A stretch of 64,000 bases of DNA from Planctomycetota bacterium. GTDB lineage: Bacteria; Planctomycetota; B15-G4; JADJEK01. The translations under genes and the position numbers were made by a program. Position 1 is the first letter of the stretch, and each line of letters opens with the position of its first letter. The stretch is from assembly GCA_044225365.1 (NCBI GenBank), contig JBGAIQ010000009.1, positions 96,462 through 160,461 of the forward strand, read 5' to 3'. Shown one piece after another: positions 8,763 through 47,677 of this stretch. Below the pieces are notes generated by a model that was not told where the DNA came from, ran no database searches, and was given only the letters and a program-made list of their open reading frames with translations.

Positions 8763-8775
8763 ACGGCAAAACCCA

Positions 8776-22582: not shown

Positions 22583-22789
22583 GTGAAGATTCGAATCGTC
22601 CTCAACGGACGCGTAAGAGAGATCGACGACACGACGACGATCGCGCAGCTCCTGCTCACCCTCGAGCAGAAGCCCGCGCTGCTCGCGGTCGAGCGCAATC
22701 AGCGCATCGTGCCGAAGGCGCTCCATGCGACGACCTGCCTCGCCGATGGCGACCAGATCGAGATCGTCACGTTCGTGGGCGGAGGCTGA
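22583..22789 (+). CDS. thiS: sulfur-carrier protein ThiS
   Basis: 68 aa from GTG 22583, with AGGAG at 22571-22575. It ends ...[10 protein letters not shown] (C-terminal Gly-Gly) and sits immediately upstream of thiG. Confidence 0.8.
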
Positions 22790-22790
22790 G

Positions 22791-24481: not shown

Positions 24482-25765
24482 TCAGCCGCGGGTGCGGCGC
24501 AGGACGTCCGCGAGCGAGCGTGCCGAACGATAGCCGACGAGCTTCTCGACGATGCTTCCGTCCTTGTCGATGAAGACCATCGTCGGCACGATGGCCGCGT
24601 TGTGCCGCGCGGCGAGCGCGCGTTCGAGCGCCGGATTCAGTCGCACGCAGACGAAACGAGACCGCAAGAGCTCCGACACTTCGGCGTCCTGCAGAGTTCG
24701 CTGATCGAGATCACGCGCGATCTTCGACCAATCGGCGGTATAGAGCACGCAGAGCGTCTTCTTGTCCCTCTTCGCGAGCTCCTCGCCCTTGCCGATGTCG
24801 GTGAGCCATTCCACCGGCTTGTCGGTGCGGGGGCGCGGTGGCTCGAGCTGGAGCGGGTCGGAGTCGAGCAAGGCCTGCTGCGCGGAATCGACGCTCTCCT
24901 CGCCGACGTCGACCCGCCGCGCCTCCGGCATGAGACTCGTGATTCGATACGGAATGCCGCCGAACTGGATCGGAACGGTGCATGGAACGAGTTCGAGGCC
25001 CTGCGGGAGTGGCGCGCCTGGCGCGAGTTCGATCAGTGCCCAGCGTGCCGAGCCGACGGCGTACATCGCCGTACCGCTGTCGTCATAGAGCACGACCCGC
25101 GCGTCCTTGCCGAGCAGCTTCGCGGTTCCTTCGCGCCAGTTCGCATCGATCACGAAGAGCTTCGTCATCTCCGACGGATCGTTGGAGCGCGGGAGCCAGG
25201 AATAGAACGTGAATCGGCACGCGTCCTCGATCCGGTCCGAACCGCCGGACGTCTCAACCCTCGCGCCGAAGTAGACGGTGACGGGGACCGCGGTGAATTC
25301 GACGTAGTCGGTCTCGCGCTGCGGATCCTTCACGACGACACCCTTCACGGGCTCTTGTTCATCGCTCCCGGAGAAGGATTGATCGCGATCGCGATCGATC
25401 CACAGCAGGTCGTAGCGATGCGTCGAGGGATTCGATTGGTCGAGGATGATCGTCTGGCGCCCACCGCGGCCGAAGCGCACGATTCCGTAGAGCGGCGTGT
25501 CGCACCGGAGCTGCGGGAGTTGCTTGATCTCGAGCATCGGTTTCTGAGCGAGCGCGATGGCGGTCGGCGAGCGCGAGACGAACGGACGCTCAGCCGGGTT
25601 CCCGGCCACGAGTTCGAGGGGGAACGACGTCTTCTTGACGAGGTTTCCGGCCGTGATGCCAACCTGGTTCGGATCGTCCTGCTGCGGGTCGGGTTGTTGG
25701 GCGAACGCGCGGCTGAAGCACAGCGCGCCGAAGGCCACGGCGAAGGCGAACGGGAAACGAAGCAT
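24482..25765 (-). CDS. secreted protein with C-terminal thioredoxin-fold domain lacking CxxC
   Basis: Start MLRFPFAFAVAFGALCFSRAFAQ at 25765 (CAT at 25763-25765). The C-terminus KTLCVLYTADWSKIARDL...IVPTMVFIDKDGSIVEKLVGY is thioredoxin-like, but YTADWSK replaces the usual WCxxC. Confidence 0.6.
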   Translation of the reverse strand: MLRFPFAFAVAFGALCFSRAFAQQPDPQQDDPNQVGITAGNLVKKTSFPLELVAGNPAERPFVSRSPTAIALAQKPMLEIKQLPQLRCDTPLYGIVRFGRGGRQTIILDQSNPSTHRYDLLWIDRDRDQSFSGSDEQEPVKGVVVKDPQRETDYVEFTAVPVTVYFGARVETSGGSDRIEDACRFTFYSWLPRSNDPSEMTKLFVIDANWREGTAKLLGKDARVVLYDDSGTAMYAVGSARWALIELAPGAPLPQGLELVPCTVPIQFGGIPYRITSLMPEARRVDVGEESVDSAQQALLDSDPLQLEPPRPRTDKPVEWLTDIGKGEELAKRDKKTLCVLYTADWSKIARDLDQRTLQDAEVSELLRSRFVCVRLNPALERALAARHNAAIVPTMVFIDKDGSIVEKLVGYRSARSLADVLRRTRG

Positions 25766-25829
25766 TCTCGAACTCTCTCTTCGAAGGAAGATCAGATTCT
25801 TCGGCGATCGACGGGCTCGCGCAAGAGCC

Positions 25830-27032
25830 CTACTTCTGGAAGATCGGCAAGTACTGCTGCGGCATGAGGAGGATGAGGCACGCGGACGCCGTGGAATAGA
25901 CTCGACCGTAGTCGCTCTCACCGATCGAGCCCTTCGGATCCTGGCTCTCCGCGAACTCGTCGACGATCGCCGTCTGCCACGCGCGGAACAGACTGGGATC
26001 ACGGTACAGGTAGTAGGCCTCTGCCGCATAGAGCCGCGCGTAGAAGGGATGAGTATCGCCGAGAGTGCGCAGGCTGGGATTCAGAACCGGATCCTTGATC
26101 TGCATGTACTCGATGCCGCGGTCGATCACGTCGCTGGCATAGTCGCCCGTGGCGTTGAGGGTCGCGATGGCGGCAGCCGTGAGTCCGTAACTCACCTGCT
26201 CCTTCATCATCTTGCTGTAGCAGAAGGCCCCGCTCGGCCGCTGGAGCTCCCTCACGTACTTCACGGCGTCGTCGATGCATTGCTTGTTGACGTAGATTCC
26301 GACGTCGCGTGCCGCTCGCAGGGCCTGGATCATCGTGATGGTGACCGACCCCTCGTGCTCGGCGTCTCCGGGCTCGTAATACCAGCCGCCATCCTTCGTC
26401 TGCGACCATTCGATGAGCTGGACGGCGTCGACGAGGATCCGGCGCAGCTCGGCCATCTCGCCGCGCACGCGCTTCACCGAGCCGTCCCCGTAGGCATCGT
26501 CGATGCGGTAGGTGCCATAGGCCTCGGCGAGGGCGAGGGTCGCGTACCCGTGGCCGTGCATCTTCGACGTCCCGTCACCGGGGAACGAGAAGTAGATGTG
26601 GTTGACGTCGATGTCCTCGGCCTTGTCCTCACCCAGAATCCGATGCGCGGTGAACGTCGTGGCGTTGCCGCACTTCATGAGGAACTGGATCGCCTTCTGC
26701 ACGTTCTCGCGATACGGCCCGCGGCCGAGCGTCGAGCCACCCGCCATGAACGCGAGCGCACTGAGGGCGGTCACGGCGACGGGAGCCGACGTCACTCCGG
26801 TATCGGACTTCGCCTTGTTGAACTGACCATCCTCGGCCTGTTGCTTCGCGAGCCACTCGAGCCCGCGCTGGCCGATCTCGAACGCGCGATCCTCGACCTC
26901 GCGCGTGGCGTGCTGGGAATTCCCGTCCGATCCGAAACCGGCGCCGCTCGGGCGGCACATCGCCTTCGCCGCGACGAGGATTGCCGCGACAGCGAGGACA
27001 GTGCTTACCGGGATGGCGCGGGCCGGGATCAT
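25830..27032 (-). CDS. prenyltransferase/squalene-cyclase-like alpha/alpha-toroid (QW-repeat) protein, paralogue 2
   Basis: The N-terminus is hydrophobic. QW-type motifs are LAKQQAEDGQF, WSQTKDGGWYYEP and ELQRPSGAFCY. It ends QQYLPIFQK, like the paralogue at 32941-34092. The start overlaps the upstream stop by 1 nt. Confidence 0.65.
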   Translation of the reverse strand: MIPARAIPVSTVLAVAAILVAAKAMCRPSGAGFGSDGNSQHATREVEDRAFEIGQRGLEWLAKQQAEDGQFNKAKSDTGVTSAPVAVTALSALAFMAGGSTLGRGPYRENVQKAIQFLMKCGNATTFTAHRILGEDKAEDIDVNHIYFSFPGDGTSKMHGHGYATLALAEAYGTYRIDDAYGDGSVKRVRGEMAELRRILVDAVQLIEWSQTKDGGWYYEPGDAEHEGSVTITMIQALRAARDVGIYVNKQCIDDAVKYVRELQRPSGAFCYSKMMKEQVSYGLTAAAIATLNATGDYASDVIDRGIEYMQIKDPVLNPSLRTLGDTHPFYARLYAAEAYYLYRDPSLFRAWQTAIVDEFAESQDPKGSIGESDYGRVYSTASACLILLMPQQYLPIFQK

Positions 27033-27742
27033 CAGGGCTGCTTGCTCTTGTTCCGCGTCCGGTAGTACTGCAACAGGAGCTCTCGATAGCGGTCCGGGAA
27101 CTCGTTCTGCGAGAGCTTCTGGAACATCTCCTGGACCTTCGGCGGCAGGACGCCCCAGCGGCCGGCGACGTTCTCGCGCTGGTACTTCTCCTTCTCCGAC
27201 GGCGGATCGACGCCATCCGCCTTCTGCTGATCCGGCTTGCTCTTGTCCGGCCCACCATCCTTCGGCTGGCCCGATTTCTCCTCGGGCTTCTGCTTGCCCT
27301 CGCCCTTGTCCTTCTCGCCTTGCTGCTTCAGCTTGTCGACCTCGGGATCCTTGCCCCGCTCGTCCTGCTGTTTCTGCTGGGGAGAGTTCTTGGGATCGGG
27401 CTCGCCCGACCCCTTGCCGCCGCTGTTGGACTGCCGCTTCGCCATGCGGACGAGTTCCTCGATGTCCGTCACGGCCTGCGACTGCTTGGATTGGATGTCC
27501 TTCAGCAGCTTGTCGAGATCGGCTTTCACCTGCTCGATCCTCGCGGCGGCATCCTTGGGCGCATCCTTCGCAGCCTGCAACAGCAGCTCGTCGATCTCGC
27601 CCATCTCCTTACGGATCTTGGCTTGGAGCTCCTTCGCCTTGATCTCGTCGGCTTGTCCCCCGTCCTGCGCGACCGCGCGCTGCGCGCTCACGCCCGTGAG
27701 GATCGCCGCGACGCAGAGGAATCGCTGGATGCGCGTGTTCAT
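27032..27742 (-). CDS. secreted Lys/Gln/Glu-rich protein with conserved-looking C-terminal WGxLPP...YRELLLQYYR motif
   Basis: MNTRIQRFLCVAAILTGVSAQRAVAQ is signal-like. The middle is low-complexity KQ-rich. The C-terminus reads RWGVLPPKVQEMFQKLSQNEFPDRYRELLLQYYR. An ATGA overlap links it to the upstream gene. Confidence 0.6.
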   Translation of the reverse strand: MNTRIQRFLCVAAILTGVSAQRAVAQDGGQADEIKAKELQAKIRKEMGEIDELLLQAAKDAPKDAAARIEQVKADLDKLLKDIQSKQSQAVTDIEELVRMAKRQSNSGGKGSGEPDPKNSPQQKQQDERGKDPEVDKLKQQGEKDKGEGKQKPEEKSGQPKDGGPDKSKPDQQKADGVDPPSEKEKYQRENVAGRWGVLPPKVQEMFQKLSQNEFPDRYRELLLQYYRTRNKSKQP

Positions 27743-30525
27743 TTGCCACCCGGGCCCTTCTCGTCCTTCACTTCGACCGGCGGCCCCTGCGAGTCGTCGA
27801 TCATGCCGCGGAAGAGTTTCGTGATCTCGGAGTGCTGTAGTCCGAGGCGGGTCAGGCGGTCACGCGAAATCGCGTCGAGACCACCCTCCGCATTGGCGCC
27901 CTGGAGCCGCATGAAGACGTCGAGACGCTTCATCATGCTCTCCTCCATTCGCTTCAACATGAGCAACTCGGCGACGGGCGGGATCAAGGGCTGCTTCTGT
28001 TGCTGCTGCGGCGAATTCCCGTTCTGGCCGTCCGGCGGCTGGCCCTCCTCGCCCTCCTTCGGCTTGAGCTTCGCCTGCTTGCGGCGCTCGACTTCTTCAT
28101 CGAGGGTCGCGAGAAGCGTGTCGTAGCGATCGAGGATGTCGCGCGCGATCGACTGCGTGAAGTCGTCGGTGCGGTAGGGAGCGGTCCCGAGCAGTTCGGT
28201 CACTCGATCGAAATCGCCGTCGTTCTGCTCGAGCGCGAACGTGAAGACCGTCGCTCCATCCTCGCGCAGCTTCGACACGACCTCCTGATTCTGCACCTTC
28301 AGTTCTCGCGACTTCTGCGCGAGCTTCTTCGACGTATTCTGTCCGACTCGCGACAGCTTGCCCTTGCTCTGGCGCTCGAGTTCGAGCTCCTCGGTCTTGG
28401 CTACGACCTCACCCTGGCCCGTACGAAGGAGGGTCAACTGCTCCTTCACCTTGAAGAGCAACTCCTCCTGGCGAAGGTTCTGGTACTTGTCCTTCTCCTG
28501 CTTCAGTTCCTGCTCGGCCTTCTTCAAGAACTTCTCGGCTTCTTCCTGGCGCGGGGTTGCTTCCTCGCCCTGCTCCTTCTTGAGGCTCGATGCCGCCTGA
28601 TCCATCTTCGATGCGGCGGCGGAGAGCGACTGCTCGCGTTCGGGCTTCTTCTCGTCGCGGATACGATCCATCAGCTCTTTCAGCTTCTTCTCGAGCTCCC
28701 GCTGACGGCTCTCGAGGTCGTCGTACTTCTGCTGCTGATCCGCGGCCGAAGGGGAGTCCTTCGCGGACTGCTCGGCTTCCGACTGCTGCTGGTCGAGCTC
28801 CTGCGAGGCCTTCTCGAGTTGTTCACCCGCCTCGCTCTGGCTCTTCGCTGCTTTCTCCTGCTGGCCGCTGCGCATCGATTGCGCCGCCTGCTGCATCGAC
28901 TGCGCCGCCGACTCCACGGCCTTCGAGGCTCCCGACGGCGAATCCTTCTTCATGGCCGCGTCGAGGCGGGAGAGCGTCTTCGCGAGAGCCTCGGCCTGCT
29001 GGCTCGCGTACTCCTGCTTCGCGGCGAGGGAGTCGCTCCGTTCCTGCGCAGCCTTCTCGGCACCGTCGATCGCGTTGCGCGCCTCCTTCATCTTCTCGAG
29101 CGCATCGCGTTGCGCCGCGGCCGCGCCTTCGAGGTCGGGCTTCTCCATCTCGGAACCGGCTTCGTTCGCCGCTTGCGCGCTCTGCTCGAGCGCCGCCGCC
29201 GCGTCGCTCGCTCGCTTCTGCGCCGCTTGGTTTCGTTCGGCGGCCTGCGGATCGCCCGCACTCTTCGAATCGCGTGAGTCCTGCGTCGGCAACTTCTCCA
29301 CCCGGGAAGCAGCTTCTGCGAGCTTCTTCGCTTCGTCACCGAGTTCGCGTTGCTGGTCGGCCGCCTTCGCGTCGGTCGCCGACTTCGAGAGCGCCTTGTC
29401 GAGCTGCGCCTTCGCGGCATCGACGTTCTCGTTCTCGGCGTTCGCGAGCTGCGCCGCCGTGGACGCGTCGCCGTTCTTCTCGGCGTCGCGCGCCGCCTTC
29501 ATCCGCTCCGAAGCACTCGCGAGTGCTTTGGCGAGGGCTTCGCGGGCGGTTGCGATCTCGGCGGCGTTCGCCGGATCCTTCGCGCCGTTCTCGCCGTTCT
29601 TTGCGTCGGCCGCGGTCGCCTCCTGTGACAACGCGTCCTTCGCCGCCGCGAGTTGTTCGGCAACCTTCTTCATCGCGTCGGCGTCGCCCGCGGCCTTCGA
29701 GTCGTCAGATGCGTCGGCCTTGGACTTCGGGGAGCCGTCGGCGGAGGCTGCCTCGGCCTTCTTGGCAAGGTCCTTCGCGAGAGCCTTCTGGGCTTCGATC
29801 GCGGCCTGTGCAGCGAGGAATCCGGGAGCCGCCCGCTCGAGCGAGTTCTCGGTCGCTGCGAGCGCGGCATTCTGCTTCGCGATCAGGTTCTCCAACTGGT
29901 GCTTCAGAGCGGCGAGTGCCGAGTCCTTCGACTGCGACTCGCTCGTGTTCTCCTTCGCCAGCTTCTGTTCGTTCTCCTTCAGGTCCTTCAACTGACTCTT
30001 CGCCTGCTCGGCGAGAGCCTTCGGATTCGTCGCCAGAACGGTCGTCTCGTTCGTCAGCTTCTGCTGCTCGCTCCGCACCTGCGCAATGTCGCGGACCGCT
30101 TGTTCGAGCTTCTTGGCTTCGGCGTCGAGCGAATCGAAGTCCGTTCGATCGAGGAGGATCGCGTACACGGACTCGAGATCCTTGAGCAGGTCCTCCTGCT
30201 CCTTCACCGAGGCGAACTCCTGGCGGTCGAGACTCGACCCGATCTTCTCGATCGTTCGGGTCAGCTCGCGCTTCTTGATCTCGGCGATCGCATTGTCGAG
30301 CAGGTCGGCGCTGTGCTGCTTTCCCTCCGCCCGCAGCCGCTTCGACAGCGACTCCATGTTCTTCTTCGTCGACTCGATGCGGCTCTTGAGGTTCTGCTGC
30401 TCCTGCGAGATGCGTTTGACGTCGGTCGCGGCGTCGGTCTCATCGCTCGCCCACGAGCGTGCGAACGGCAGTGCACAGAGCGACAGCGAGAGGAGACACG
30501 GAGCGAAGTGGAATCGGCTTCTCAT
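27739..30525 (-). CDS. 928-aa secreted Ala/Lys/Glu/Gln-rich coiled-coil protein
   Basis: Start MRSRFHFAPCLLSLSLCALPFARSWA at 30525 (CAT at 30523-30525). Nearly the entire length has heptad-like AKE/Q-rich composition. The C-terminus has LIPPVAELLMLKRMEESMMKRLDVF. Confidence 0.65.
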   Translation of the reverse strand: MRSRFHFAPCLLSLSLCALPFARSWASDETDAATDVKRISQEQQNLKSRIESTKKNMESLSKRLRAEGKQHSADLLDNAIAEIKKRELTRTIEKIGSSLDRQEFASVKEQEDLLKDLESVYAILLDRTDFDSLDAEAKKLEQAVRDIAQVRSEQQKLTNETTVLATNPKALAEQAKSQLKDLKENEQKLAKENTSESQSKDSALAALKHQLENLIAKQNAALAATENSLERAAPGFLAAQAAIEAQKALAKDLAKKAEAASADGSPKSKADASDDSKAAGDADAMKKVAEQLAAAKDALSQEATAADAKNGENGAKDPANAAEIATAREALAKALASASERMKAARDAEKNGDASTAAQLANAENENVDAAKAQLDKALSKSATDAKAADQQRELGDEAKKLAEAASRVEKLPTQDSRDSKSAGDPQAAERNQAAQKRASDAAAALEQSAQAANEAGSEMEKPDLEGAAAAQRDALEKMKEARNAIDGAEKAAQERSDSLAAKQEYASQQAEALAKTLSRLDAAMKKDSPSGASKAVESAAQSMQQAAQSMRSGQQEKAAKSQSEAGEQLEKASQELDQQQSEAEQSAKDSPSAADQQQKYDDLESRQRELEKKLKELMDRIRDEKKPEREQSLSAAASKMDQAASSLKKEQGEEATPRQEEAEKFLKKAEQELKQEKDKYQNLRQEELLFKVKEQLTLLRTGQGEVVAKTEELELERQSKGKLSRVGQNTSKKLAQKSRELKVQNQEVVSKLREDGATVFTFALEQNDGDFDRVTELLGTAPYRTDDFTQSIARDILDRYDTLLATLDEEVERRKQAKLKPKEGEEGQPPDGQNGNSPQQQQKQPLIPPVAELLMLKRMEESMMKRLDVFMRLQGANAEGGLDAISRDRLTRLGLQHSEITKLFRGMIDDSQGPPVEVKDEKGPGGK

Positions 30526-30569
30526 GGTGTGCCTTACGACCGATTGCGCGCGGCGGGGTTCCATCGTTG

Positions 30570-32906: not shown

Positions 32907-32940
32907 CGGTTGATCGGGTCCGTCTCGTGGTCCATCGGGC

Positions 32941-34092
32941 TCAGCGCTGCAGGATCGGCAAGTACCGGTAAGGGACCTGCAGGATGATCGACGCTACGGC
33001 GGTCGAGAAGGCGTCGCCGGGACCCTCCTTGTTGCGCCAGAAACCGTCGCGCGTCTGCACGTTCAACAGGTCCGCCTTGATGCTTTTATAGTACCGACTC
33101 CACCACGGGTCGCCCGCGACAAAGAACGCCTGCACCGCGTAGTAGTGGCCGTACCAGAAGAAGAAGTGTTCGTAGCGACTCCGCATCTGGTCGTACTCGC
33201 GCTCGAGGAGATCGAGCGACTCGCGAAGGGTTTCGTTCGAGTACACGCCTGCGTTGTAGAGCGATGCGATCCCCGCCGCCGTGAGCGCGAACGAACTGCG
33301 CGTGTTGTCCTGCTTCTGATACTTGAACGAGCCGCGCTTCAAGAAGTAGTAGTCGTTCGAGTCGCCGTATCCCGCGTAGGGGTCGTCCTCCGGCTGATAG
33401 GAGTCGATGACGTACTTCACGGCGTTGTCGATCGTGGTCTTCGGGACCTTGATCCCGATGTTGCGAGCCGAGCGCAGCGCCATGATCTGGCAGACCGTGA
33501 TCGACATGTCGGACTCGATCGCGAACGGCTCGTAGCGCCACGAACCGTAGCTGTTCTGCGATTCGACGATGAGGTCGACGGCGCGCTGCAGTTTCTCGCG
33601 CAGGTCGTTGCGATGCGTCATCCCGACGACTTCGGACAGGAAGAGCGTCGCGAACGCGTGGCTGTACATGCGCGTTCCGTCGCGCGAGATGTAACCGTGC
33701 TCGTCGACCGAGGTGAGGATGAAGTCGATCGCCTTCGTCAGCGTCTCGCCGTAGCGGCCGCGACCCGGCAGATTGCCGCCCGCGAGGTACGCCATGCCCG
33801 CGAGCGCCGTCACCCCGACGTGATGGACCTTCTCGTGCTCGACCATGTAACTCTGATTCAGCTTGAAGCCGACATCCCCGGTCCACGAGCCGTCGGCGTT
33901 CTGCTGCTTCTGGAGCCAGCGCAGCGCCTTGTCGACCGCGGTCGCCACCGCGGGATCGGGATCATCGGCACCCACGTTCGAATCGTCGCTCGCAGTGACG
34001 GGGACGGGTGCGATGGGCGACACCCCGAACGACACGAGCGGCGCGAGGAGGACGAAGCCCACGCCGAGTCCGAGCGACCGAAACATTCTCAT
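32941..34092 (-). CDS. prenyltransferase/squalene-cyclase-like alpha/alpha-toroid (QW-repeat) protein, paralogue 1
   Basis: Start MRMFRSLGLGVGFVLLAPLVSFG at 34092 (or 34086). QW-type motifs are LQKQQNADGSWTGD, ESQNSYGSWRYEP and NVQTRDGFWRNK. It ends YRYLPILQR. Confidence 0.65.
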   Translation of the reverse strand: MRMFRSLGLGVGFVLLAPLVSFGVSPIAPVPVTASDDSNVGADDPDPAVATAVDKALRWLQKQQNADGSWTGDVGFKLNQSYMVEHEKVHHVGVTALAGMAYLAGGNLPGRGRYGETLTKAIDFILTSVDEHGYISRDGTRMYSHAFATLFLSEVVGMTHRNDLREKLQRAVDLIVESQNSYGSWRYEPFAIESDMSITVCQIMALRSARNIGIKVPKTTIDNAVKYVIDSYQPEDDPYAGYGDSNDYYFLKRGSFKYQKQDNTRSSFALTAAGIASLYNAGVYSNETLRESLDLLEREYDQMRSRYEHFFFWYGHYYAVQAFFVAGDPWWSRYYKSIKADLLNVQTRDGFWRNKEGPGDAFSTAVASIILQVPYRYLPILQR

Positions 34093-34145
34093 GGATTCGA
34101 TTCCTTCAAGCGTTCGCGCGGGGTCCATCGACTTTCCTTTGCCGC

Positions 34146-37100
34146 TCACTTCGAAGTCTCGTAGACGGCGAGAGCCGTTCCGGACAGGACCGCGAAGTGG
34201 CGCGGGGTTGCAACGCTCTGCACCGGCGCGCGTTCCGAGGTCAGCGGGATCTCGACCGCGGCGAACGTGCCGGCATCGGGCGCGAACGTGAATAGGTACG
34301 TGCGCCGGGGATTGCCCGACGCACGCCGGATCTCCGCGAGACCGTAGACGTCACCGGTTCGGGTGAGCGACGCGCGGAACGTCGGACTCCCGGGGGGCAG
34401 GGCCGTCATGTCGACCGTTCGTTCGATCGCTTTCTTGTCGAGGTCGATCACGACGAGGCGATCCCGCTTCGCCGCTCCCGACCCCGTGCCCGCGCCGACG
34501 AGCACGAAGCGGCGCTTGGACGTGCCGCTTCCCGTGTCGAAGGCTCGCAGGTTCTCGAGGCCCATGACACACTGTTCGACCGTTCCCGTCCGCGGCTCAA
34601 GTCGGCTGACCGAAACGATCCCGCGCGGGGATCGCGTGTAGGTCGGCGAGGTTCCCTTGGGCAACAGGAATCCGTTCGTGGTCGGAACGAGCCACTCGAA
34701 CGACATCGGGAACGGCACTTCCTTCACGTAGGCGAGCGGCCGACCGTCCTCGAGGTCGAACGACGCGAGCGACTTCGTCTCGGCGTTCTCGCGACCGAGC
34801 GTCAACACGACGCCGAACTCCTCGTAAGCGCGCGCTTCGAACCGCTTGTTCATCGCGAGGTTCGAGATCGCGAAACGCTTCACGCCCGTGAGCGCATCGA
34901 GCGACACGACCGTCGGCTGCTCGCTCGCGCCGATCGCCAGCACGGCATCGCGGACGGCTTGGATTTCGAGGCACTCGAAATCGAGCGGCGTCGACCACAG
35001 CACCATGCCGGTCGCGGTCTCGACGGCGACGATCATCGAAGCGCCTTGCGTCGGTGGCGTGAGCAGCGCGAAGATCAGGCTGCCCGCGGAATCGACCGCC
35101 CCCACCGAGGCCCCGGAACTCCCGGCGAGGCTCGTATCGAAGCGGGTGATACCGCTCTTCTTGTCGATCCCGAACAGCCGATCCCGCTGCCGAAAGACGA
35201 TGCGATCTCCGATCGAGAACGCTCGCAGCGGGTCGAGGTCCGACGCATAGGCCGGCACGCGAACGTGCCAGATCTCCGACAACGTCGCGAGGTCGATGCG
35301 ACGCAAGACGGCGTCGGGCGCTCCGAGTTGCTCCTCCTCGTACACCAGGATCGCATCCTCGGAGTCGAATTCGACGGGGACGAGCACGCTGCGCGTCACC
35401 TGGAGTTCGAGCGTCTTCGCCGCAGGATCGGGGAGTCGCTCGAGGCGCGCCCTCTCCGCGACCGCGGCCGGCTCGGCCCCGAGGGCTTCGAGATCACGGG
35501 TTGCGACGCTGCGCACGTCCGAGGCCGGCTCGACGACGCTCGCGGCCGCCGAACCCGTCGCGACGATGCGCTTCAGCATGAGGCGAGCGAGCGCGGAATC
35601 GCCAGCGAGCGCGGCGCCGCGCGCAGCGAGGAGGAGAGCGTTCTGCCGATCGCCGTCGTCGTTCGCGGAAGTGAGCAGCGGCGCGACGACGCGGAACACC
35701 TCGGAGTACTCCTTGCGTTCGAGGCGGATCATCGCGAGGTCGAGACGCGCCCGCGGCGCCGCGGCGGCGTTCGGGAATCGCATCACGATCTCGAGGAGGG
35801 CCGCCGCATTGCGCGACGCGCTCGCCGCGCTGCGGGCGTCGCTCGCGGCGGCGTCGAATTCGGCGTAGATCGATCGGCCGTACTTTGCGATGGCATCCGC
35901 GATGAGTCGCTCGGCGTGCTTGCCCGCAGTTCCACCCGGGAAAGGGGTGTCGCGATACAGATCGATGATCCGCTGCCAACTCGAAACCGCCGCCTTGGCG
36001 TCGCGGCGGCCGAGCGCATACACGGCGCGCCGATCGAGGGTGTAGAGACCCGCGGGGATCGGAGTGCCGTAGGCGTTCGCCGCGAAGGCGTACTGCGCAT
36101 TCGGACAGCGCTCGTCGATCCAGTCGAGGACCGCCGGGATCCGCGAAGGATCCGCAGCCTCGAGCGAGTGGATCAACTGTTCGCAGGCGCGGAGGAAGTC
36201 GGCGTCGTCGAGGGAATGCTCCGCCTCCGCGAATCGGTGCTGCGCGGCCACCGCTGCGAGCCCGGACTTGTCGGCGCGTTCTGCGAGTTGATGATGCGCC
36301 ACCGCGAGTCGCTCGTGTGCGCGACGAACCAGGCTCGCATCGGTCGCGGGGGACGAGATCGATGGATCGGCCAGTACGCCCTCGAACTCCGTGATCGCAC
36401 GCTCGACGTTACCGCGCAGTGCCAGCAACTCTCCGAGATCGACGTGATCGGCGAGCGTGCCCTTGCCGCTGCCGATCCGCGTCTCGACGCGCTGGATCAG
36501 GTTCTCGAGATCGTAGAACACCGTCATCTGGCTCGCGGAGACGACGATCTGGAAGTCGCGATGCACCAGGAGATTCCCGGGCAATCCCGCCGAGTCCGAG
36601 AAACCCCAGTCGAGCGTGCGATCGCGCAGATCCATTCCCGCCTTGGTCCGCTGGTACCGCAATTCGAGCAGGCCTTCGGCGAGCGGTTGGAAGAGGACAC
36701 CGTCGCCGAGGCAGCCGCGGCCCGCGTACGACCGCGCCTGGCGGAAGCGATAGGCCCCGAGGAGTCGACCGTTGCGAAGATCGTGGAAACCGATCCCGCT
36801 CGGCCCGGAGAAGATCACGGCCCCCTGATCCACACCGAGCACGGTGCAGTAGTCGAAGGGATGGTTCTTGTCCTGATTGCACTCGACCGACCAGAGGATC
36901 TTGCCCGTCGACGCCTCGTACGCGTAGGCCGAATCCGAGTCGAGCGGAGTGACGATGCAGACTCCCTCGCGCACGATGGCCGGATCGTTGATCCAGAACC
37001 GCGGCCGCTCGAAGGTGCGTCGATAGTGACGCGTCGCCTTGATGGGAATCGCTTCGTACTGCGCGAGCCAGCGAGGATTGCCGGTGAGACCGTCGAGGCA

Positions 37101-38780
37101 GCCGGAGAGCCCGAGATTCGTCGACAGGAAGATCGAGCCGTCCTTCTCCGCGACCATCTGGGTCGTGAATTCCTTGAACGGCTTGTTGAACATCGTCAGC
37201 TCCTGCTGACCGATGACGAGCGGCGTCTTCCACAGGAGCGAGCCGTCCTGCAGCGAGAGGCACATCGCGTAGACGTTGATCGCGCCCTCGAGCAGCGAAC
37301 CCGTCACGTAGATCCGATCCCCCACCGCGACGGGCGCCGAGAGGATCGAGACACGATTGATGAAATCGTGGAGCGGGCGATCATCGCGCCGCATGCGCCA
37401 CAGCAGCCTGCCGTTCTCGACGTCGACCGCGTAGAGCCCGCGCCGCGGAACGGTCTGGGTGATGCGCGTCTGATCGAACTCCACGTCCCGGCCGTGGGGC
37501 GCGGGTTCGAGGAGGGCGCCGAGAACCACGTGATCGGAGATCGTCGCGACGAGCGGCAAGGAGCGGGCCAGGGTCCCGAAATCGTTGTCCATTCCGGGCA
37601 TCGGGCTGTCCCAGAGCAGACTGTTGAAGTCGTAGAGCTGGGGCGCGACGGAGCCCGAGAGCGGCCCGATGTACTTCCACTTCGGCGTGGCCGAGTAGAA
37701 CGACCAGGCGCGGATCGAGAGACCATCGCAGAGGACGATGACATCGGAGGCGACGACCGGATGGAACGGACTCGATTCCCGGATCTCGCGAACCCGACGC
37801 CACGGATTCTCGTCACCACTGAAGGAGTCCGTCGTCCAGCGCGACGCGAACGTCAGCGCCTCGGGATCGAACTGGACGAGTCCATCGTGGGCGCCATTGC
37901 CGCCGACCACCGGCCACGCGGCGTCCCTCGGGGGCATCATCGAGCCGAACTCCGGCAGGATCCCACGGGCTTTCGCCGGCGAGCCGGAGACCGTGACGGA
38001 GGGATCGCCGAATCGCTCGATCCAGCGCGACGCCGGCGAGTCCGAACGGCCGAACGCCGCCGACGCGGCCGCGAGGAATGCATCCCCGGATGCCTTCTCC
38101 GCTGTGCTCGATACGGATTCGAATGCCAGCTTGCGGCCGTAGAAACGCTCGGATGCTTCGAAATCACCGCGCTCGAGGGCGAGGCGACCGAGACGATCGA
38201 GCGCGCGTTGCCCTTCGGGAGTGAGTTCCCAGAAGCGCACGAACTCGATCAGCTTCGAAGGATCCTGGGTCTCGGCGATCGCCCGCCAGAGCGACTCGGA
38301 TCGCAGGCGAGCGAACTCGGTGTAGGCGGCGCGACCCTCGGCCGGGAACGACGCGATGAGGTACTTTGCGTACTCCGCGGCCCCGACGTAGCGCGGCGGG
38401 TCGTTCGCCACTTGGTAGACGTGTGTCGGGTAGAGAGTGATCAACTCCTGGAGCGAGTCACACGCGACGCGGTATTCGCCGCGCCGCATCGCATCGCGCG
38501 CCGACTCGAACAGCACGCGGACCCGCGCCGTCGTCTGCACCGCGAACGTCGCGACGGCGCTGTGATCCGGGTCGTACTTGAAGTTCGGGTCCTGGATCGA
38601 CTCCCATCCGCCGAACGGCAAGAACGGTTCGTCCTGGGCCCGCAGGACCGAAGTCGTCAGGAGGCCAACGACGACCGCGGCCACCGCCGCGCCGGAGGCA
38701 GTGGAGATGCGAGCGGCCGGAACGGCGGCCGTTGCTCGCGGCGCGCCCTCGTCCGTGCGGTGTTTCGAAGCGAGCTTCAC
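34146..38780 (-). CDS. 1544-aa secreted TPR + PQQ-like beta-propeller repeat protein
   Basis: GTG start at 38780. The N-terminus has a hydrophobic segment AAVAAVVVGLLTTSVLRAQ. Propeller-type repeats include GRLLWRMRR, DGSLLWKTPL, GKILWSVE and GMVLWSTPL. TPR-like helical blocks sit between them. Confidence 0.65.
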   Translation of the reverse strand: MKLASKHRTDEGAPRATAAVPAARISTASGAAVAAVVVGLLTTSVLRAQDEPFLPFGGWESIQDPNFKYDPDHSAVATFAVQTTARVRVLFESARDAMRRGEYRVACDSLQELITLYPTHVYQVANDPPRYVGAAEYAKYLIASFPAEGRAAYTEFARLRSESLWRAIAETQDPSKLIEFVRFWELTPEGQRALDRLGRLALERGDFEASERFYGRKLAFESVSSTAEKASGDAFLAAASAAFGRSDSPASRWIERFGDPSVTVSGSPAKARGILPEFGSMMPPRDAAWPVVGGNGAHDGLVQFDPEALTFASRWTTDSFSGDENPWRRVREIRESSPFHPVVASDVIVLCDGLSIRAWSFYSATPKWKYIGPLSGSVAPQLYDFNSLLWDSPMPGMDNDFGTLARSLPLVATISDHVVLGALLEPAPHGRDVEFDQTRITQTVPRRGLYAVDVENGRLLWRMRRDDRPLHDFINRVSILSAPVAVGDRIYVTGSLLEGAINVYAMCLSLQDGSLLWKTPLVIGQQELTMFNKPFKEFTTQMVAEKDGSIFLSTNLGLSGCLDGLTGNPRWLAQYEAIPIKATRHYRRTFERPRFWINDPAIVREGVCIVTPLDSDSAYAYEASTGKILWSVECNQDKNHPFDYCTVLGVDQGAVIFSGPSGIGFHDLRNGRLLGAYRFRQARSYAGRGCLGDGVLFQPLAEGLLELRYQRTKAGMDLRDRTLDWGFSDSAGLPGNLLVHRDFQIVVSASQMTVFYDLENLIQRVETRIGSGKGTLADHVDLGELLALRGNVERAITEFEGVLADPSISSPATDASLVRRAHERLAVAHHQLAERADKSGLAAVAAQHRFAEAEHSLDDADFLRACEQLIHSLEAADPSRIPAVLDWIDERCPNAQYAFAANAYGTPIPAGLYTLDRRAVYALGRRDAKAAVSSWQRIIDLYRDTPFPGGTAGKHAERLIADAIAKYGRSIYAEFDAAASDARSAASASRNAAALLEIVMRFPNAAAAPRARLDLAMIRLERKEYSEVFRVVAPLLTSANDDGDRQNALLLAARGAALAGDSALARLMLKRIVATGSAAASVVEPASDVRSVATRDLEALGAEPAAVAERARLERLPDPAAKTLELQVTRSVLVPVEFDSEDAILVYEEEQLGAPDAVLRRIDLATLSEIWHVRVPAYASDLDPLRAFSIGDRIVFRQRDRLFGIDKKSGITRFDTSLAGSSGASVGAVDSAGSLIFALLTPPTQGASMIVAVETATGMVLWSTPLDFECLEIQAVRDAVLAIGASEQPTVVSLDALTGVKRFAISNLAMNKRFEARAYEEFGVVLTLGRENAETKSLASFDLEDGRPLAYVKEVPFPMSFEWLVPTTNGFLLPKGTSPTYTRSPRGIVSVSRLEPRTGTVEQCVMGLENLRAFDTGSGTSKRRFVLVGAGTGSGAAKRDRLVVIDLDKKAIERTVDMTALPPGSPTFRASLTRTGDVYGLAEIRRASGNPRRTYLFTFAPDAGTFAAVEIPLTSERAPVQSVATPRHFAVLSGTALAVYETSK

Positions 38781-45648: not shown

Positions 45649-46562
45649 CGCCGCGAACCTCGCCGTTCGCGCAGCGCGAGGTACGAAGTGAGTGCGACGT
45701 CGAGCGGCGTGTCGGTGAGGAGCACGCGGAAGTCGACTCCGTTGTTGAGACAGCCCTTCTTCAACTTGGCCTGATGCGCGTTGAAGACCTCAAGGTACGC
45801 GGCGCGCAGGGCCTGAGGATCGGCGATCAGGTCGCCCATCCCCTCGAGGCCCTCGAACTTCATCATGCGGTCGAACGCGAAGTCGACTTCGTCACGATCG
45901 AGCACCTGGAAGACCATGACGTCTTGCCGCTTGGTCTTGAGGGCGCGGATCCCCGCGAGCACTTTCTCGGGCGGCGCGAAGAAGTCCGAGATGACGGCGA
46001 CGATCGATCGCGGCGGGAGTCGCGTAGCGAGTTCACGCAGTGCGAGCCCAGGGTCGGTCTTCTTCACGAGCTTCACGCGCTCGATCGCGTCCGTGATCTT
46101 GAGCAGGTGCGAGGGCCGCGTCGCCGCGGGAACCCATTTGTCGACGTCCTCGCTCGTGAGCGCGAGCGCGGCGGCATCGCGGTGATCGAGGACGAGGAAC
46201 GACAAGGTCGCCGCGACGAATGCGCCGTAACGGAACTTGCTGACCCGATCGACGCCCGCGTAGCTCATGGACTCCGAGCAGTCGAGGACGATCGACAGCG
46301 TGAGGTTCGTCTCTTCCTCGTAGCGCTTGATGTAGTAGCGATCGGATCGTCCGAAGATCCGCCAGTCGAGATGGCGCAGGTCGTCGCCGGGCACGTATTC
46401 GCGATGCTCCGCGAACTCGACGGAGGCCCCGCGATGCGGGCTCTTGTGCATCCCGGCCATGAATCCTTCGACGGCCTGGCGCGCCTTCAGTTCGAGGCGC
46501 CCCAGCTTGTCGAGGACCTTAGGATCCAACCACTGGCGGTAGTCGTGTGTCGCTGAGGACAT
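45645..46562 (-). CDS. DUF58 family protein
   Basis: HRGASVEFAEHREYVPGDDLRHLDWRIFGRSDRYYIKRYEEETN is the DUF58 signature. It also has LDCSESM. Confidence 0.85.
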   Translation of the reverse strand: MSSATHDYRQWLDPKVLDKLGRLELKARQAVEGFMAGMHKSPHRGASVEFAEHREYVPGDDLRHLDWRIFGRSDRYYIKRYEEETNLTLSIVLDCSESMSYAGVDRVSKFRYGAFVAATLSFLVLDHRDAAALALTSEDVDKWVPAATRPSHLLKITDAIERVKLVKKTDPGLALRELATRLPPRSIVAVISDFFAPPEKVLAGIRALKTKRQDVMVFQVLDRDEVDFAFDRMMKFEGLEGMGDLIADPQALRAAYLEVFNAHQAKLKKGCLNNGVDFRVLLTDTPLDVALTSYLALRERRGSRR

Positions 46563-47562: not shown

Positions 47563-47677
47563 TGCGAAACTCCAGGTACGGCCGTGATTCCGCGGGACGT
47601 GAGGCCCCGCAGATCCAACCATCTAGGATACGATCGGCAAACGAGAGGCGAGAGACGAAATCGTTCGTGAGATCTCG

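What the first reader, a model, noticed from the sequence alone, without database searches (positions are those of the whole stretch)
24482..38780. Seven-gene exported module downstream of the MoxR-VWA core: candidate undescribed envelope system
Seven genes are co-directional on the minus strand. Two junctions overlap (1 nt at 27032; ATGA at 27739-27742) and all other gaps are 65 nt or less. In order they are a 1544-aa TPR+PQQ-like propeller, a QW-repeat alpha/alpha toroid and a 778-aa TM protein. Then come a 928-aa coiled coil, a 236-aa Lys/Gln-rich protein, a second QW toroid and a thioredoxin-fold protein without CxxC. Every product starts with a signal- or TM-like segment, and I can read no catalytic motif in any of them. 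The set does not correspond to the named BatA-E components of the (itself poorly understood) aerotolerance operon as I know it. The composition (scaffold, membrane anchor, long rod, toroids) looks like a structural, envelope-spanning or surface-layer-associated assembly. It might be matured by the upstream MoxR/VWA chaperone module.
Basis: inference. Interest (0 to 1): 0.75.

Follow-up and report, generated by a model that had tools for sequence, protein, structure and literature searches.

The report
Planctomycete MoxR–BatA operon's periplasmic extension
The seven genes are real and stay linked across Planctomycetota, but they are the distal half of a larger MoxR–VWA ("Bat-like") envelope operon, and three of them are pieces of a known but uncharacterised protein type (DUF4175), so this is a lineage-specific expansion of a known mystery system, not a wholly new one.

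Summary
Seven co-directional minus-strand genes lie at 24482-38780 with the stated overlaps, gaps of 64 nt or less, and N-terminal signal or TM segments.

The block is conserved in about 40 Planctomycetota genomes at 28-50% identity. The order is always DUF58 > BatA-VWA > VWA/GATase1-like > TPR-propeller > toroid B > TM protein > coiled coil > Lys/Gln protein. Toroid A follows in most loci. The thioredoxin-like gene occurs only in the closest clade.

In most relatives, including the cultured Rohdeia mirabilis Pla163, the propeller gene directly follows the VWA genes. The ClC channel gene that separates them here is a clade-specific insertion.

The TM protein and the coiled coil hit the N- and C-parts of Pfam DUF4175. 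One metagenomic protein (P0290) fuses the two. Distant single-chain relatives sit in DUF4159–MoxR–DUF58–BatA operons. The Lys/Gln protein shares their C-terminal motif, but I found that match after seeing both sets.

The toroids are the most conserved parts (median 55% identity). They lack DxDD and CxEQ motifs.

Best reading: a MoxR-serviced assembly anchored in the cytoplasmic membrane and extending into the periplasm, with an envelope role. I rate it a new variant of a known, uncharacterised kind, of moderate interest.

The parts
47678..49945 (-). PQQ755: exported TPR-like plus beta-propeller protein, probably the first gene of the cluster. It is a paralog of the N-terminal half of the 1544-aa protein.
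   Evidence: Weak PQQ_2 Pfam hit. BLASTP against the 1544-aa protein gives colinear matches at E=1e-8 and 3e-4. A homolog lies upstream of MoxR in L045 (33% identity). A gene of the same size and position exists in Pla163. The start codon is uncertain.
46519..47622 (-). MoxR (MRP-type) AAA+ ATPase.
   Evidence: AAA_3 at 3.4e-63 plus AAA_lid_2. Walker A GVPGLAKT and Walker B VILADE are intact.
45645..46562 (-). DUF58 VWA-like protein with no TM segment, predicted cytoplasmic partner of MoxR.
   Evidence: DUF58 at 5.4e-39. MIDAS motif DCSES. No hydrophobic segment.
43330..45648 (-). BatA-type protein: N-terminal double-TM anchor, VWA, Ig-like (CARDB) domain, and a C-terminal TM helix.
   Evidence: BatA, VWA_2 and CARDB hits. 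TIGR02226 'two_anch' at 7e-19. MIDAS motif DTSYS. TM segments at 8-26, 58-76 and 741-759.
40874..43426 (-). Second membrane-anchored VWA protein with a GATase1-like domain and an MG2-like domain.
   Evidence: VWA, GATase1_like and a weak MG2 hit. MIDAS motif DASAS. Two N-terminal TM segments. A conserved neighbour of the module in 24 loci. The start codon is uncertain.
38952..40750 (-). ClC chloride channel/antiporter with a CBS pair. It is inserted between the VWA genes and the module and is probably not a functional part of the system.
   Evidence: Voltage_CLC at 2.5e-87 plus CBS. Found only in the window's clade (L009/L045, L010, L012). Absent at this position in about 25 other loci and in Pla163. 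The start is uncertain; the first-ATG ORF reaches 41192.
34146..38780 (-). PQQ1544: exported giant TPR plus two PQQ/BamB-like beta-propeller regions. Core gene.
   Evidence: PQQ_2 at 4.5e-18 and TPR hits. BamB-like second propeller at 1166-1307. Orthologs lie directly after the VWA gene in 29 loci.
32941..34128 (-). Toroid B: exported (alpha/alpha)6 toroid with QW repeats. Core gene and the most conserved component.
30570..32906 (-). TM778: the N-terminal piece of a DUF4175-type protein. Three TM helices flank a conserved cytoplasmic segment of about 80 aa. About four periplasmic Ig-like domains follow, then a long helical bundle. Core gene.
   Evidence: DUF4175 profile positions 192-325 at 26.2 bits, against a cut-off of 27.3. 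Three orthologs carry PF13779. AF2 model pLDDT 88. Foldseek finds only Ig-like strings. 17,900 relatives at E<=1e-3.
27739..30525 (-). CC928: exported Ala/Glu/Lys/Gln-rich helical protein, corresponding to the C-terminal part of DUF4175. Core gene.
   Evidence: DUF4175 profile positions 646-795 at 31.4 bits, above the cut-off. A helical unit of about 100 aa recurs. Fused to a TM778 homolog in P0290. An alternative ATG at 30573 would give an ATGA overlap with the TM gene.
27032..27742 (-). KQ236: exported Lys/Gln-rich protein with a conserved C-terminus (RWGxLPxK ... FPxxYRxLLxxYYR). Core gene and probably the detached C-terminal end of a DUF4175-type protein.
   Evidence: No Pfam hit. Orthologs in all 30 loci that extend far enough. 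The C-terminal motif is shared only with the single-chain DUF4175-like proteins P0024 and P0027 among 7,343 sequences.
25830..27032 (-). Toroid A: a paralog of toroid B. Accessory gene, present in about two thirds of loci.
   Evidence: SQHop_cyclase_C hit. 45 positions are conserved and identical in both toroid families, and both share the C-terminal YLPI[LF]Q[RK] end. Missing after the KQ gene in 7 loci.
24482..25765 (-). Trx427: exported protein with an N-terminal domain of unknown fold and a C-terminal thioredoxin fold lacking CxxC. Clade-specific last gene.
   Evidence: Thioredoxin_2/_7 hits. The site reads D-W-[SNA]-x-x-x instead of W-C-x-x-C in all orthologs. Found only in L001, L008, L009, L010, L012 and L033.

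Best explanation
The seven genes are the distal part of one conserved Planctomycetota operon. Its order is TPR-propeller, MoxR, DUF58, BatA-type VWA, VWA/GATase1-like, [ClC insertion here], giant TPR-propeller, toroid B, TM-Ig-helical protein, coiled coil, Lys/Gln protein, toroid A, thioredoxin-like protein.

What is shown:
- Gene order is conserved across the phylum.
- The TM protein plus the coiled coil equal one DUF4175-type polypeptide that is split here. A natural fusion exists.
- Single-chain DUF4175-like relatives sit in DUF4159-MoxR-DUF58-BatA operons elsewhere.
- The ATPase motifs and all three MIDAS motifs are intact.

What is inferred:
- The two BatA-type VWA proteins and the TM protein sit in the cytoplasmic membrane with large periplasmic domains.
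- The Ig-like stalk and helical bundle of the TM protein are extended by the exported coiled coil and capped by the Lys/Gln protein, forming a periplasmic rod.
- The TPR-propeller protein scaffolds the assembly.
- The two toroids bind, or act on, an envelope ligand (a glycan or lipid-like molecule) through a conserved acidic/aromatic residue set.
- Cytoplasmic MoxR and DUF58 use ATP to assemble or remodel the complex. The likely contact points are the short conserved cytoplasmic segments of the membrane proteins. The mode of action would follow other MoxR/VWA-MIDAS pairs.
- The physiological role is envelope maintenance or integrity, not aerotolerance as such.
For: Synteny:
- tblastn and jackhmmer give the same order in every locus with enough sequence (about 40 loci, 28-50% identity).
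- DUF58 is seen at the left edge in L022 and L035.
- The full upstream part (enolase, 759-aa protein, MoxR, DUF58, BatA, VWA, PQQ1533, toroid, TM765) is present with junctions of 0-20 nt in Rohdeia mirabilis Pla163.
- The junctions in the window are overlapping or short.

DUF4175 relationship:
- The Pfam hits are colinear: TM778 on profile positions 192-325, CC928 on 646-795.
- PF13779 is precomputed on three orthologs.
- Distant single-chain homologs P0024, P0026 and P0027 hit the same profile region. P0024 and P0031 lie in DUF4159-MoxR-DUF58-BatA operons.
- P0290 (1183 aa) fuses TM778-like and CC928-like parts. BLASTP gives 8e-45 and 3e-19; the family HMMs give 1.7e-14 and 4.6e-56.
- The KQ236 C-terminal motif is shared with P0024 and P0027 only.

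Topology:
- Hydropathy profile and positive-inside charge distribution.
- AF2 model of TM778.
- The BatA-like protein BB0173 was shown experimentally to be an inner-membrane protein with a periplasmic VWA domain (PMC5700661).

Machine intact: Walker A/B and three DxSxS MIDAS motifs are present.

Envelope role:
- Mutation of RL3499-RL3502 in R. leguminosarum causes morphology and envelope-integrity defects. I know this only from the title of Vanderlinde et al. 2011, as cited in PMC5700661.
- A TIGR02302 (DUF4175-type) gene and a MoxR gene are direct targets of CenR, an envelope and division regulator, in R. sphaeroides (PMC9275681).

Toroid constraint: median identity is 55%, against 29-41% for the other parts. 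The conserved set D79, R123, Q191, W197, Y199, R219, Y270, Y326, Y330 and Q333 is shared by both paralogs.
Against: - There are no expression, interaction or localisation data for any of these proteins.
- TM778's own DUF4175 score (26.2 bits) is just under Pfam's cut-off. The DUF4175 family itself has no known function.
- The KQ236 link rests on a short motif that I defined after seeing both sets. A full-length KQ HMM did not find the single-chain proteins.
- One distant locus (L042) carries TM > CC > KQ > toroid > toroid with no MoxR or VWA genes within 10 kb upstream. The sub-block can therefore exist away from MoxR.
- In this window a ClC gene interrupts the operon, followed by a 171-nt gap to the next gene. 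Co-transcription with MoxR is therefore uncertain here.
- Signal peptides were judged without a dedicated predictor.
- How a cytoplasmic AAA+ ATPase would act on periplasmic domains is unexplained.
- The fold of the toroids does not discriminate between enzyme, lectin and scaffold.
Confidence: 0.55

Rival explanations
1. The toroids are the functional heart of the module: periplasmic enzymes such as GH76-like glycosidases, epimerases or lyases, or a non-canonical cyclase, acting on peptidoglycan, an envelope polysaccharide or a hopanoid-like lipid. The rod, the propeller and the MoxR/VWA proteins would only position or regulate them.
For: - Toroid B is by far the most conserved component: median 55% identity, 82 invariant columns in 42 sequences.
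- An acidic residue (D207 in toroid B, E227 in toroid A) is conserved in both paralogs, together with Arg, Gln and many Tyr/Trp.
- The family is huge, with more than 4278 hits.
Against: - No known catalytic signature is present. DxDD is absent in 42 of 42 sequences, and there is no CxEQ.
- I could not map the conserved residues onto the model.
- Toroid A is dispensable in 7 loci.
Confidence: 0.25
2. The cluster is a biological-conflict or immunity system of the MoxR-vWA-beta-propeller 'ternary' type. In that case the distal genes would be sensors or effectors.
For: - MoxR gives a secondary hit to PF20030 bpMoxR (2.3e-11).
- Two beta-propeller proteins flank the MoxR/VWA genes.
- Relatives insert FG-GAP propeller genes.
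- Such systems are described in PMC7159879 (listed). I did not read the paper.
Against: - The AAA_3 (MRP-type) hit is far stronger (3.4e-63).
- None of ten proteins hits PADLOC.
- No effector domain (nuclease, protease, TIR, pore-former) was found.
- The locus is a vertically conserved chromosomal core region. Enolase lies upstream in the window and in Pla163, and thiG lies convergent downstream in the window and in 10 related loci, across deep divergence. Defence islands are typically patchy and mobile.
- All distal products are exported.
Confidence: 0.05
3. The cluster is a periplasmic alpha-2-macroglobulin-like protease trap, split over several genes: MG-like Ig domains in the VWA and TM proteins, and TED-like toroids.
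For: - Weak MG2 hit in the VWA/GATase protein (1.2e-4) and a CARDB hit in the BatA protein.
- Weak TED_complement hit in toroid A (0.004).
Against: - No thioester CxEQ motif in either toroid.
- The Ig-like matches are generic (TM-scores 0.1-0.2).
- All the Pfam hits are below their cut-offs.
- No bait region or receptor-binding domain was detected.
Confidence: 0.03
4. The cluster is a set of neighbouring but functionally unrelated genes, and the apparent module is an accident of gene order in this genome.
For: - No promoter or terminator signal beyond chance, so transcription units are undefined.
- A ClC gene sits inside the cluster.
- The last two genes are not universal.
Against: - The order is identical in about 40 loci down to 28% identity.
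- Stop and start codons overlap at two junctions.
- A natural fusion of two of the genes exists.
- A paralogous pair (toroid A and B) lies within the block.
Confidence: 0.03

Closest known systems
DUF4159 / MoxR (MRP subfamily) / DUF58 / BatA-type TIGR02226 VWA / DUF4175 (TIGR02302) operons of other bacteria. These include the R. leguminosarum RL3499-RL3502 operon and the metagenomic loci L002-L004.
   Same: - The same MoxR (AAA_3), DUF58 and double-TM BatA-type VWA proteins, and a GATase1-like VWA protein.
- A DUF4175-type protein with N-terminal TM helices, a beta-rich middle, a long helical and low-complexity tail, and the same kind of C-terminal motif.
- The genes are contiguous and co-directional.
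   Different: - Here the DUF4175-type protein is split into two genes, and probably three.
- A 1544-aa TPR/double-propeller protein and one or two exported toroids are added between and after the known genes. A thioredoxin-like protein is added in one clade.
- No DUF4159 gene was seen next to MoxR in the window, Pla163 or L045.
- The fused-type loci L002-L004 lack the toroid and propeller genes.
Bacteroides fragilis Bat (aerotolerance) operon and its spirochaete homologs (BatI/MoxR, BatII/DUF58, BatA, BatB, BatC, BatD, BatE).
   Same: A MoxR plus DUF58 plus BatA-domain VWA membrane-protein core. The VWA domain is periplasmic, as shown for BB0173 (PMC5700661). Function is unresolved (PMC3557215).
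   Different: None of the seven genes matches BatB-E: there are no BatD or SH3 hits. Bat operons lack DUF4175-type, toroid and giant propeller genes.
Single-domain (alpha/alpha)6 toroids: class II terpene-cyclase-like proteins (8paj, 8pak), squalene-hopene cyclase QW repeats, GH76 mannanases, and the exported protein YPO2471 (7tem).
   Different: - The proteins are exported.
- No DxDD general-acid motif and no GH76 catalytic pair was identified.
- They carry a family-specific invariant E-S-D-M-S segment and a C-terminal YLPI[LF]Q[RK] end.
- Sequence identity to any solved structure is 21% or less.
MoxR/VWA remodelling pairs with known mechanism: NorQ/NorD, CbbQ/CbbO, RavA/ViaA and the Mg-chelatase BchI/BchD.
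   Same: An AAA+ MoxR hexamer gene next to a VWA-MIDAS partner (DUF58). The general logic is ATP-driven remodelling or maturation of a dedicated target complex (abstracts of PMC9976466 and PMC13036017, listed).
   Different: The targets in those systems are cytoplasmic or membrane enzymes that receive a metal. Here the presumed clients are large periplasmic domains, and no metalloenzyme is encoded in the cluster.

Membership tests
Pfam DUF4175 (PF13779) / TIGR02302-type protein | Score at or above the Pfam gathering cut-off (27.3 bits) on PF13779. | tested here: inconclusive
   CC928 scores 31.4 bits (met) and TM778 scores 26.2 bits (just below). Three TM778 orthologs (P0004, P0009, P0013) carry PF13779 in the precomputed table. 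No NCBIfam TIGR02302 hit for either protein.
Pfam DUF4175 (PF13779) / TIGR02302-type protein | Architecture: 2-3 N-terminal TM helices, then a long extracytoplasmic region with a helical and Gln/Gly-rich low-complexity tail, in one polypeptide. This description of TIGR02302 is from my own memory. | tested here: not met
   The parts are all present but lie on separate genes. TM778 has 3 TM helices, Ig-like domains and a helical bundle. CC928 is the helical, low-complexity part. KQ236 is Lys/Gln-rich. The fused form exists elsewhere (P0290; P0024 and P0027).
Pfam DUF4175 (PF13779) / TIGR02302-type protein | Genomic association with MoxR, DUF58 and BatA-type (TIGR02226) genes. | tested here: met
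   Window, Pla163, L022 and L035. The distant fused relatives P0024 and P0031 show the same association. Exception: L042.
Bat (Bacteroides aerotolerance) operon | MoxR (BatI), DUF58 (BatII) and a BatA-domain VWA membrane protein. | tested here: met
   AAA_3 at 3.4e-63, DUF58 at 5.4e-39, BatA at 4.3e-15 plus VWA_2. TIGR02226 at 7e-19.
Bat (Bacteroides aerotolerance) operon | BatB-E components: VWA+TPR, TPR, BatD, and SH3+TPR proteins. | tested here: not met
   No BatD, SH3 or BatB/C-type hit in any of the 13 proteins. Only generic, sub-threshold TPR hits in the 1544-aa protein.
Bat (Bacteroides aerotolerance) operon | A role in oxygen or oxidative-stress tolerance. | not testable with these tools
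   This is a phenotype. It is disputed even for the Bat proteins of Leptospira (PMC3557215).
Class II terpene cyclase / squalene-hopene cyclase family | DxDD general-acid motif in the central cavity. | tested here: not met
   No D.D[DE] in toroid A or B. 0 of 42 toroid B family members have DxDD after residue 60.
Class II terpene cyclase / squalene-hopene cyclase family | (alpha/alpha)6 toroid fold with QW repeats. | tested here: met
   [not shown]
Alpha-2-macroglobulin / complement thioester proteins | Thioester CGEQ (CxEQ) motif in the TED toroid. | tested here: not met
   No C.EQ in toroid A or B. The TED_complement hit is 0.004 and below the cut-off.
MoxR-vWA-beta-propeller ternary conflict systems (bpMoxR) | MoxR of the bpMoxR clade, with a dedicated vWA and beta-propeller and associated effector domains. 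| tested here: inconclusive
   The bpMoxR hit (2.3e-11) passes its cut-off but is much weaker than AAA_3 (3.4e-63). No effector domains and no PADLOC hits. Propeller proteins are present.
Thioredoxin / DsbD-type thiol-disulfide oxidoreductases | CxxC active site. | tested here: not met
   The position reads DWSKIA in the window protein, and DW[SNA]xxx in its four correctly aligned orthologs (L001, L008, L010, L033); the L009 and L012 rows were taken in the wrong frame. The fold hits Thioredoxin_2/_7 pass their cut-offs.

The most novel reading that the evidence does not exclude
The operon builds a Planctomycetota-specific, MoxR-assembled periplasmic rod. The rod would consist of the Ig-like stalk, the helical bundle, the exported coiled coil and the Lys/Gln cap. 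It would carry highly conserved toroid enzymes or lectins, and it would set or sense the architecture of the unusually wide planctomycetal periplasm, acting as a spacer or tether between the cytoplasmic membrane and the wall. If so, it would give the first mechanistic handle on the DUF4175/Bat class of systems.
Probability: 0.15. Interest if true: 0.8.

Novelty: new variant of a known kind. Interest (0 to 1): 0.45.

Why it matters
MoxR-DUF58-BatA operons are among the most widespread bacterial gene clusters without a mechanism. The Bat operon has been known since 1999, and envelope defects have been reported in Rhizobium mutants.

This variant adds a defined, phylum-wide set of partners: a split DUF4175 stalk, two toroids and a giant propeller. 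Together they suggest what the ATPase/VWA core services, namely a large periplasmic assembly.

The split and fused forms give Rosetta-stone evidence for which proteins act together. The very strong conservation of toroid B points to a specific ligand or reaction that could be searched for.

The complete cluster is present in a cultured strain (Rohdeia mirabilis Pla163), so the hypotheses can be tested. For annotation, three 'hypothetical proteins' can be relabelled as parts of a DUF4175-type protein.

Tried and rejected
1. Apparent CC928-KQ236 and TM778-CC928 fusions in the loci (long stop-to-stop ORFs in L039, L033 and L008). The genes lie in different frames. The long ORFs are high-GC artefacts, so I rejected them. 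The only accepted fusion is the database protein P0290.

2. KQ236 as a significant HMM match to DUF4175 or to the single-chain relatives. Pfam at E up to 10 and a family HMM with --max found nothing. Only the short C-terminal motif remains.

3. Solved structures by sequence. There were none for the TM778 family. PQQ1544 gave only a designed TPR. Trx427 gave only weak thioredoxin matches.

4. Fold search of the TM778 model. It returned only generic Ig-domain strings with TM-scores of 0.2 or less. The afdb50 library was unavailable.

5. Defence-system models (PADLOC): no hits.

6. Promoter/terminator scan and Rfam: nothing above chance.

7. Literature. No paper describes this gene set. Searches for DUF4175, DUF4159, TIGR02226, 'squalene oxidase repeat' plus VWA, and YPO2471 gave nothing relevant beyond the items cited. 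Vanderlinde et al. 2011 is not held in the library.

8. The 347-348-aa neighbours of the fused DUF4175-like genes (L002, L004) as toroids: no Pfam or tblastn support.

9. The source organism of the window could not be named. The exact proteins are on an unnamed 161-kb NCBI contig.

Full report
**1. Observation**

The window is high-GC (about 65%).

- 34146-38780: 1544 aa.
- 32941-34149: 402 aa from a GTG start. The database gene call starts at ATG 34128 and gives 395 aa.
- 30570-32906: 778 aa.
- 27739-30525: 928 aa.
- 27032-27742: 236 aa.
- 25830-27032: 400 aa.
- 24482-25765: 427 aa.

The 1-nt overlap at 27032 and the ATGA overlap at 27739-27742 are real. The other gaps are 34, 44 and 64 nt, plus -4 or 17 nt at the propeller/toroid B junction depending on the start chosen. 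An in-frame ATG at 30573 would create a further ATGA overlap between the TM gene and the coiled-coil gene, but the true start is unsettled. Six of the seven products exist with exactly these sequences as gene calls in a public NCBI assembly.

Pfam and NCBIfam confirm the domain calls:

- TPR and PQQ/BamB-like propellers in the 1544-aa protein.
- QW-repeat toroids in both toroid proteins.
- A thioredoxin fold in the last gene, without CxxC in it or in any ortholog.

All seven products start with a hydrophobic signal-like or TM segment. I judged this by hydropathy and by eye, because no dedicated predictor was available.

Downstream, the block ends convergently against a PP-loop ATPase gene and thiG.

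**2. The module is the distal half of a larger operon**

Upstream on the same strand lie the following genes:

- A ClC/CBS channel gene.
- A membrane-anchored VWA/GATase1-like/MG2-like protein.
- A BatA-type (TIGR02226) VWA protein.
- DUF58.
- An MRP-type MoxR.
- A 755-aa TPR-propeller protein that is a paralog of the N-terminal half of the 1544-aa protein.
- Enolase.

MoxR has intact Walker A and B motifs. All three VWA-type proteins keep the DxSxS MIDAS motif.

**3. Conservation**

A homolog search with the 778-aa protein and one scan of species-representative genomes gave 38 loci. All but one are labelled Planctomycetota or unclassified 'bacterium'. They span Phycisphaerae, Planctomycetia and a Brocadiaceae-labelled MAG.

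I ran tblastn and jackhmmer with the window's 13 proteins. In every locus with enough sequence the order is BatA-VWA > VWA/GATase > TPR-propeller > toroid B > TM protein > coiled coil > Lys/Gln protein. DUF58 is visible at the left edge of L022 and L035.

- Toroid A follows the Lys/Gln gene in about 18 loci. In 7 loci it is absent, and unrelated genes follow instead, such as a P-type ATPase or a Ser/Thr kinase.
- The thioredoxin-like gene is confined to the six closest relatives.
- The ClC gene is present only in the window's clade (L009/L045, L010, L012). Elsewhere the propeller gene starts within tens of nucleotides of the VWA gene.

The cultured strain Rohdeia mirabilis Pla163 (CP036290) carries enolase > 141 aa > 759 aa > MoxR > DUF58 > BatA > VWA > PQQ1533 > toroid > TM765 with junctions of 0-20 nt.

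So the unit under selection is the whole operon.

One distant locus (L042, 24% identity) has TM > CC > KQ > toroid > toroid without MoxR or VWA genes in the 10 kb upstream. The sub-block can therefore be detached from MoxR.

**4. Three of the seven genes are pieces of a DUF4175-type protein**

- The TM protein matches Pfam DUF4175 at profile positions 192-325 (26.2 bits; cut-off 27.3). The coiled coil matches positions 646-795 (31.4 bits). The two matches are colinear. Three orthologs of the TM protein carry PF13779 in the precomputed table.
- Distant single-chain relatives of 1036-1234 aa (P0024, P0026, P0027) hit the same N-terminal profile region. One of them is annotated 'DUF4175 family protein'.
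- P0024 and P0031 lie in DUF4159-MoxR-DUF58-BatA operons.
- A profile of the TM-protein family finds 17,900 cluster representatives (4,429 at E<=1e-30). Most are 700-800 aa. One of them, P0290 (1183 aa), is a natural fusion. Residues 10-715 align to the TM protein (BLASTP 8e-45). Residues 705-1150 align to the coiled coil (3e-19). The family HMMs of the coiled coil's N- and C-terminal parts score 1.7e-14 and 4.6e-56. This is Rosetta-stone evidence that the two gene products act as one unit in the same compartment.
- The 236-aa protein has orthologs in all 30 loci that reach far enough. It has a conserved C-terminus (RWGxLPxK...[FV]PxxYRxLLxxYYR). Among 7,343 sequences, a regex for the last part matches only these orthologs and the C-termini of P0024 and P0027. 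I wrote that motif after seeing both sets, and HMMs do not support the link. I treat it as a good lead, not a result.

**5. Structures**

*TM protein.* The AF2 model (pLDDT 88) has five parts:

- Two TM helices.
- A conserved cytoplasmic helical segment of about 80 aa.
- A third TM helix.
- About four beta-sandwich domains (residues 190-545).
- A bundle of very long helices (residues 547-776).

Foldseek finds only generic Ig-domain strings. No solved relative exists by sequence.

*Coiled coil.* It is rich in Ala, Glu, Lys, Leu and Gln, and it contains a recurring helical unit of about 100 aa before a unique C-terminal domain.

*Toroid B.* The model (pLDDT 86.5) is an (alpha/alpha)6 toroid. The structural neighbours are:

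The fold therefore does not discriminate between these functions. DxDD and CxEQ motifs are absent.

Toroid B is the most conserved component, with a median identity of 55% against 29-41% for the others. There are 82 invariant columns in 42 sequences. The two paralogs share 45 identical, conserved positions, including an acidic residue, Arg, Gln and many aromatics. Both end in YLPI[LF]Q[RK].

**6. Mechanism**

This section is inference, and I mark each step's basis.

*Topology.*
- The positive-inside rule and hydropathy place the large domains of the two BatA-type proteins and of the TM protein in the periplasm.
- This matches the experimentally determined topology of the BatA-like protein BB0173 (PMC5700661).
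- The five other products carry signal peptides. The P0290 fusion places the coiled coil on the same side as the TM protein's C-terminus.

*Proposed assembly.*
- The complex is anchored in the cytoplasmic membrane and extends into the periplasm.
- An Ig-like stalk and helical bundle are extended by the coiled coil and capped by the Lys/Gln protein.
- The TPR-propeller protein scaffolds the complex.
- The toroids bind or modify an envelope ligand.
- The VWA-MIDAS domains provide metal-dependent contacts.
- MoxR and DUF58 in the cytoplasm would assemble or remodel the complex. This is by analogy with NorQ/NorD-type pairs (abstracts listed). The likely contacts are the conserved cytoplasmic segment of the TM protein and the basic TM1-TM2 loops of the BatA-type proteins.

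*Role.* Two indirect lines point to an envelope function:
- The title of Vanderlinde et al. 2011 on RL3499-RL3502, which I could only cite from a reference list.
- The presence of a TIGR02302 gene and a MoxR gene among direct targets of CenR, an envelope and division regulator, in R. sphaeroides (PMC9275681).

How ATP hydrolysis would be transmitted across the membrane is unknown.

**7. Rivals**

- *Toroid-centred enzymatic function.* This is the main alternative and is compatible with most of the data.
- *Conflict-system reading (MoxR-vWA-propeller ternary systems).* It is disfavoured by the dominant AAA_3 signature, the lack of PADLOC hits and of effector domains, and vertical conservation between housekeeping genes: enolase upstream in the window and Pla163, and thiG downstream in the window and 10 related loci.
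- *Split alpha-2-macroglobulin-like trap.* It fails on the thioester motif and rests on sub-threshold hits.
- *Chance co-location.* It is excluded for the five core genes.

**8. Comparison with known systems and novelty**

The closest known entity is the DUF4159/MoxR/DUF58/BatA(TIGR02226)/DUF4175 operon type, and more loosely the Bacteroides and spirochaete Bat operon. The cluster shares their core.

It differs in three ways. The DUF4175-type protein is split. A giant TPR/double-propeller protein and one or two exported toroids are added as conserved members. The BatB-E and DUF4159 components are missing.

I found no publication describing this gene set.

Verdict: a new, phylum-wide variant of a known but mechanistically uncharacterised kind of system. 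It is worth following up, because a cultured carrier exists and toroid B offers a concrete biochemical target. It is not a categorically new system. I set interest at 0.45.

Noticed in passing
window 38952-41192 (-): A ClC chloride channel/antiporter gene with a CBS pair sits inside the operon, between the VWA genes and the propeller gene. This occurs only in the window's clade (L009/L045, L010, L012). All other relatives lack it, and L005 has a C25 peptidase gene at the same spot. The site looks like a recurrent insertion point within the operon.
   Followed up: partly
window 47678-49945 (-); L045 119-7961: The gene upstream of MoxR encodes a TPR-propeller paralog of the 1544-aa protein. In the close relative L045, three FG-GAP (integrin-alpha-like propeller) genes are inserted between this gene and MoxR.
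   Followed up: partly
window 25830-25850 and 32941-32961 (C-termini of toroid A and B): Both toroid families end exactly in a conserved Y-L-P-I-[LF]-Q-[RK]-COOH motif. It could be a docking or sorting signal. No known signal of this form came to mind.
   Followed up: no
L042 1-18256: A distant planctomycete locus carries TM > coiled coil > KQ > toroid > toroid downstream of a PilT-like ATPase, a Wzc-like tyrosine-kinase/ParA-like protein and a FecR-like anti-sigma factor, with no MoxR or VWA genes within 10 kb.
   Followed up: partly
L027 (JBLIMM010000055.1): A contig labelled Pseudohongiellaceae (Gammaproteobacteria) carries the complete planctomycete-type block at about 30% identity. Mis-binning is more likely than horizontal transfer.
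   Followed up: no
window 22617-24457 (+) and the related loci listed: thiG, and in the window a PP-loop ATPase gene, lie convergent to the end of the module in the window and in 10 related loci, even at about 30% identity. Enolase lies upstream in both the window and Pla163. The operon therefore sits in a deeply conserved chromosomal neighbourhood.
   Followed up: partly
[not shown]
   Followed up: no
window 953-5044 (-) and 5097-8786 (-): An RHS-repeat/YD-shell protein (1363 aa) lies next to a Ser/Thr kinase with AAA_16 and TPR domains (STAND-like, 1229 aa). Neither is related to the finding.
   Followed up: no
window 20197-22506 (+) / 20140-22698 (-): A long ORF pair on opposite strands has no Pfam hit in either frame. 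By GC3 the + strand frame (769 aa) looks coding. Function unknown.
   Followed up: no
window 28001-30000: A strong AT skew (-0.42) coincides with the Ala/Glu/Lys/Gln-rich coiled-coil gene. This is a compositional effect of the protein, not a replication signal.
   Followed up: no
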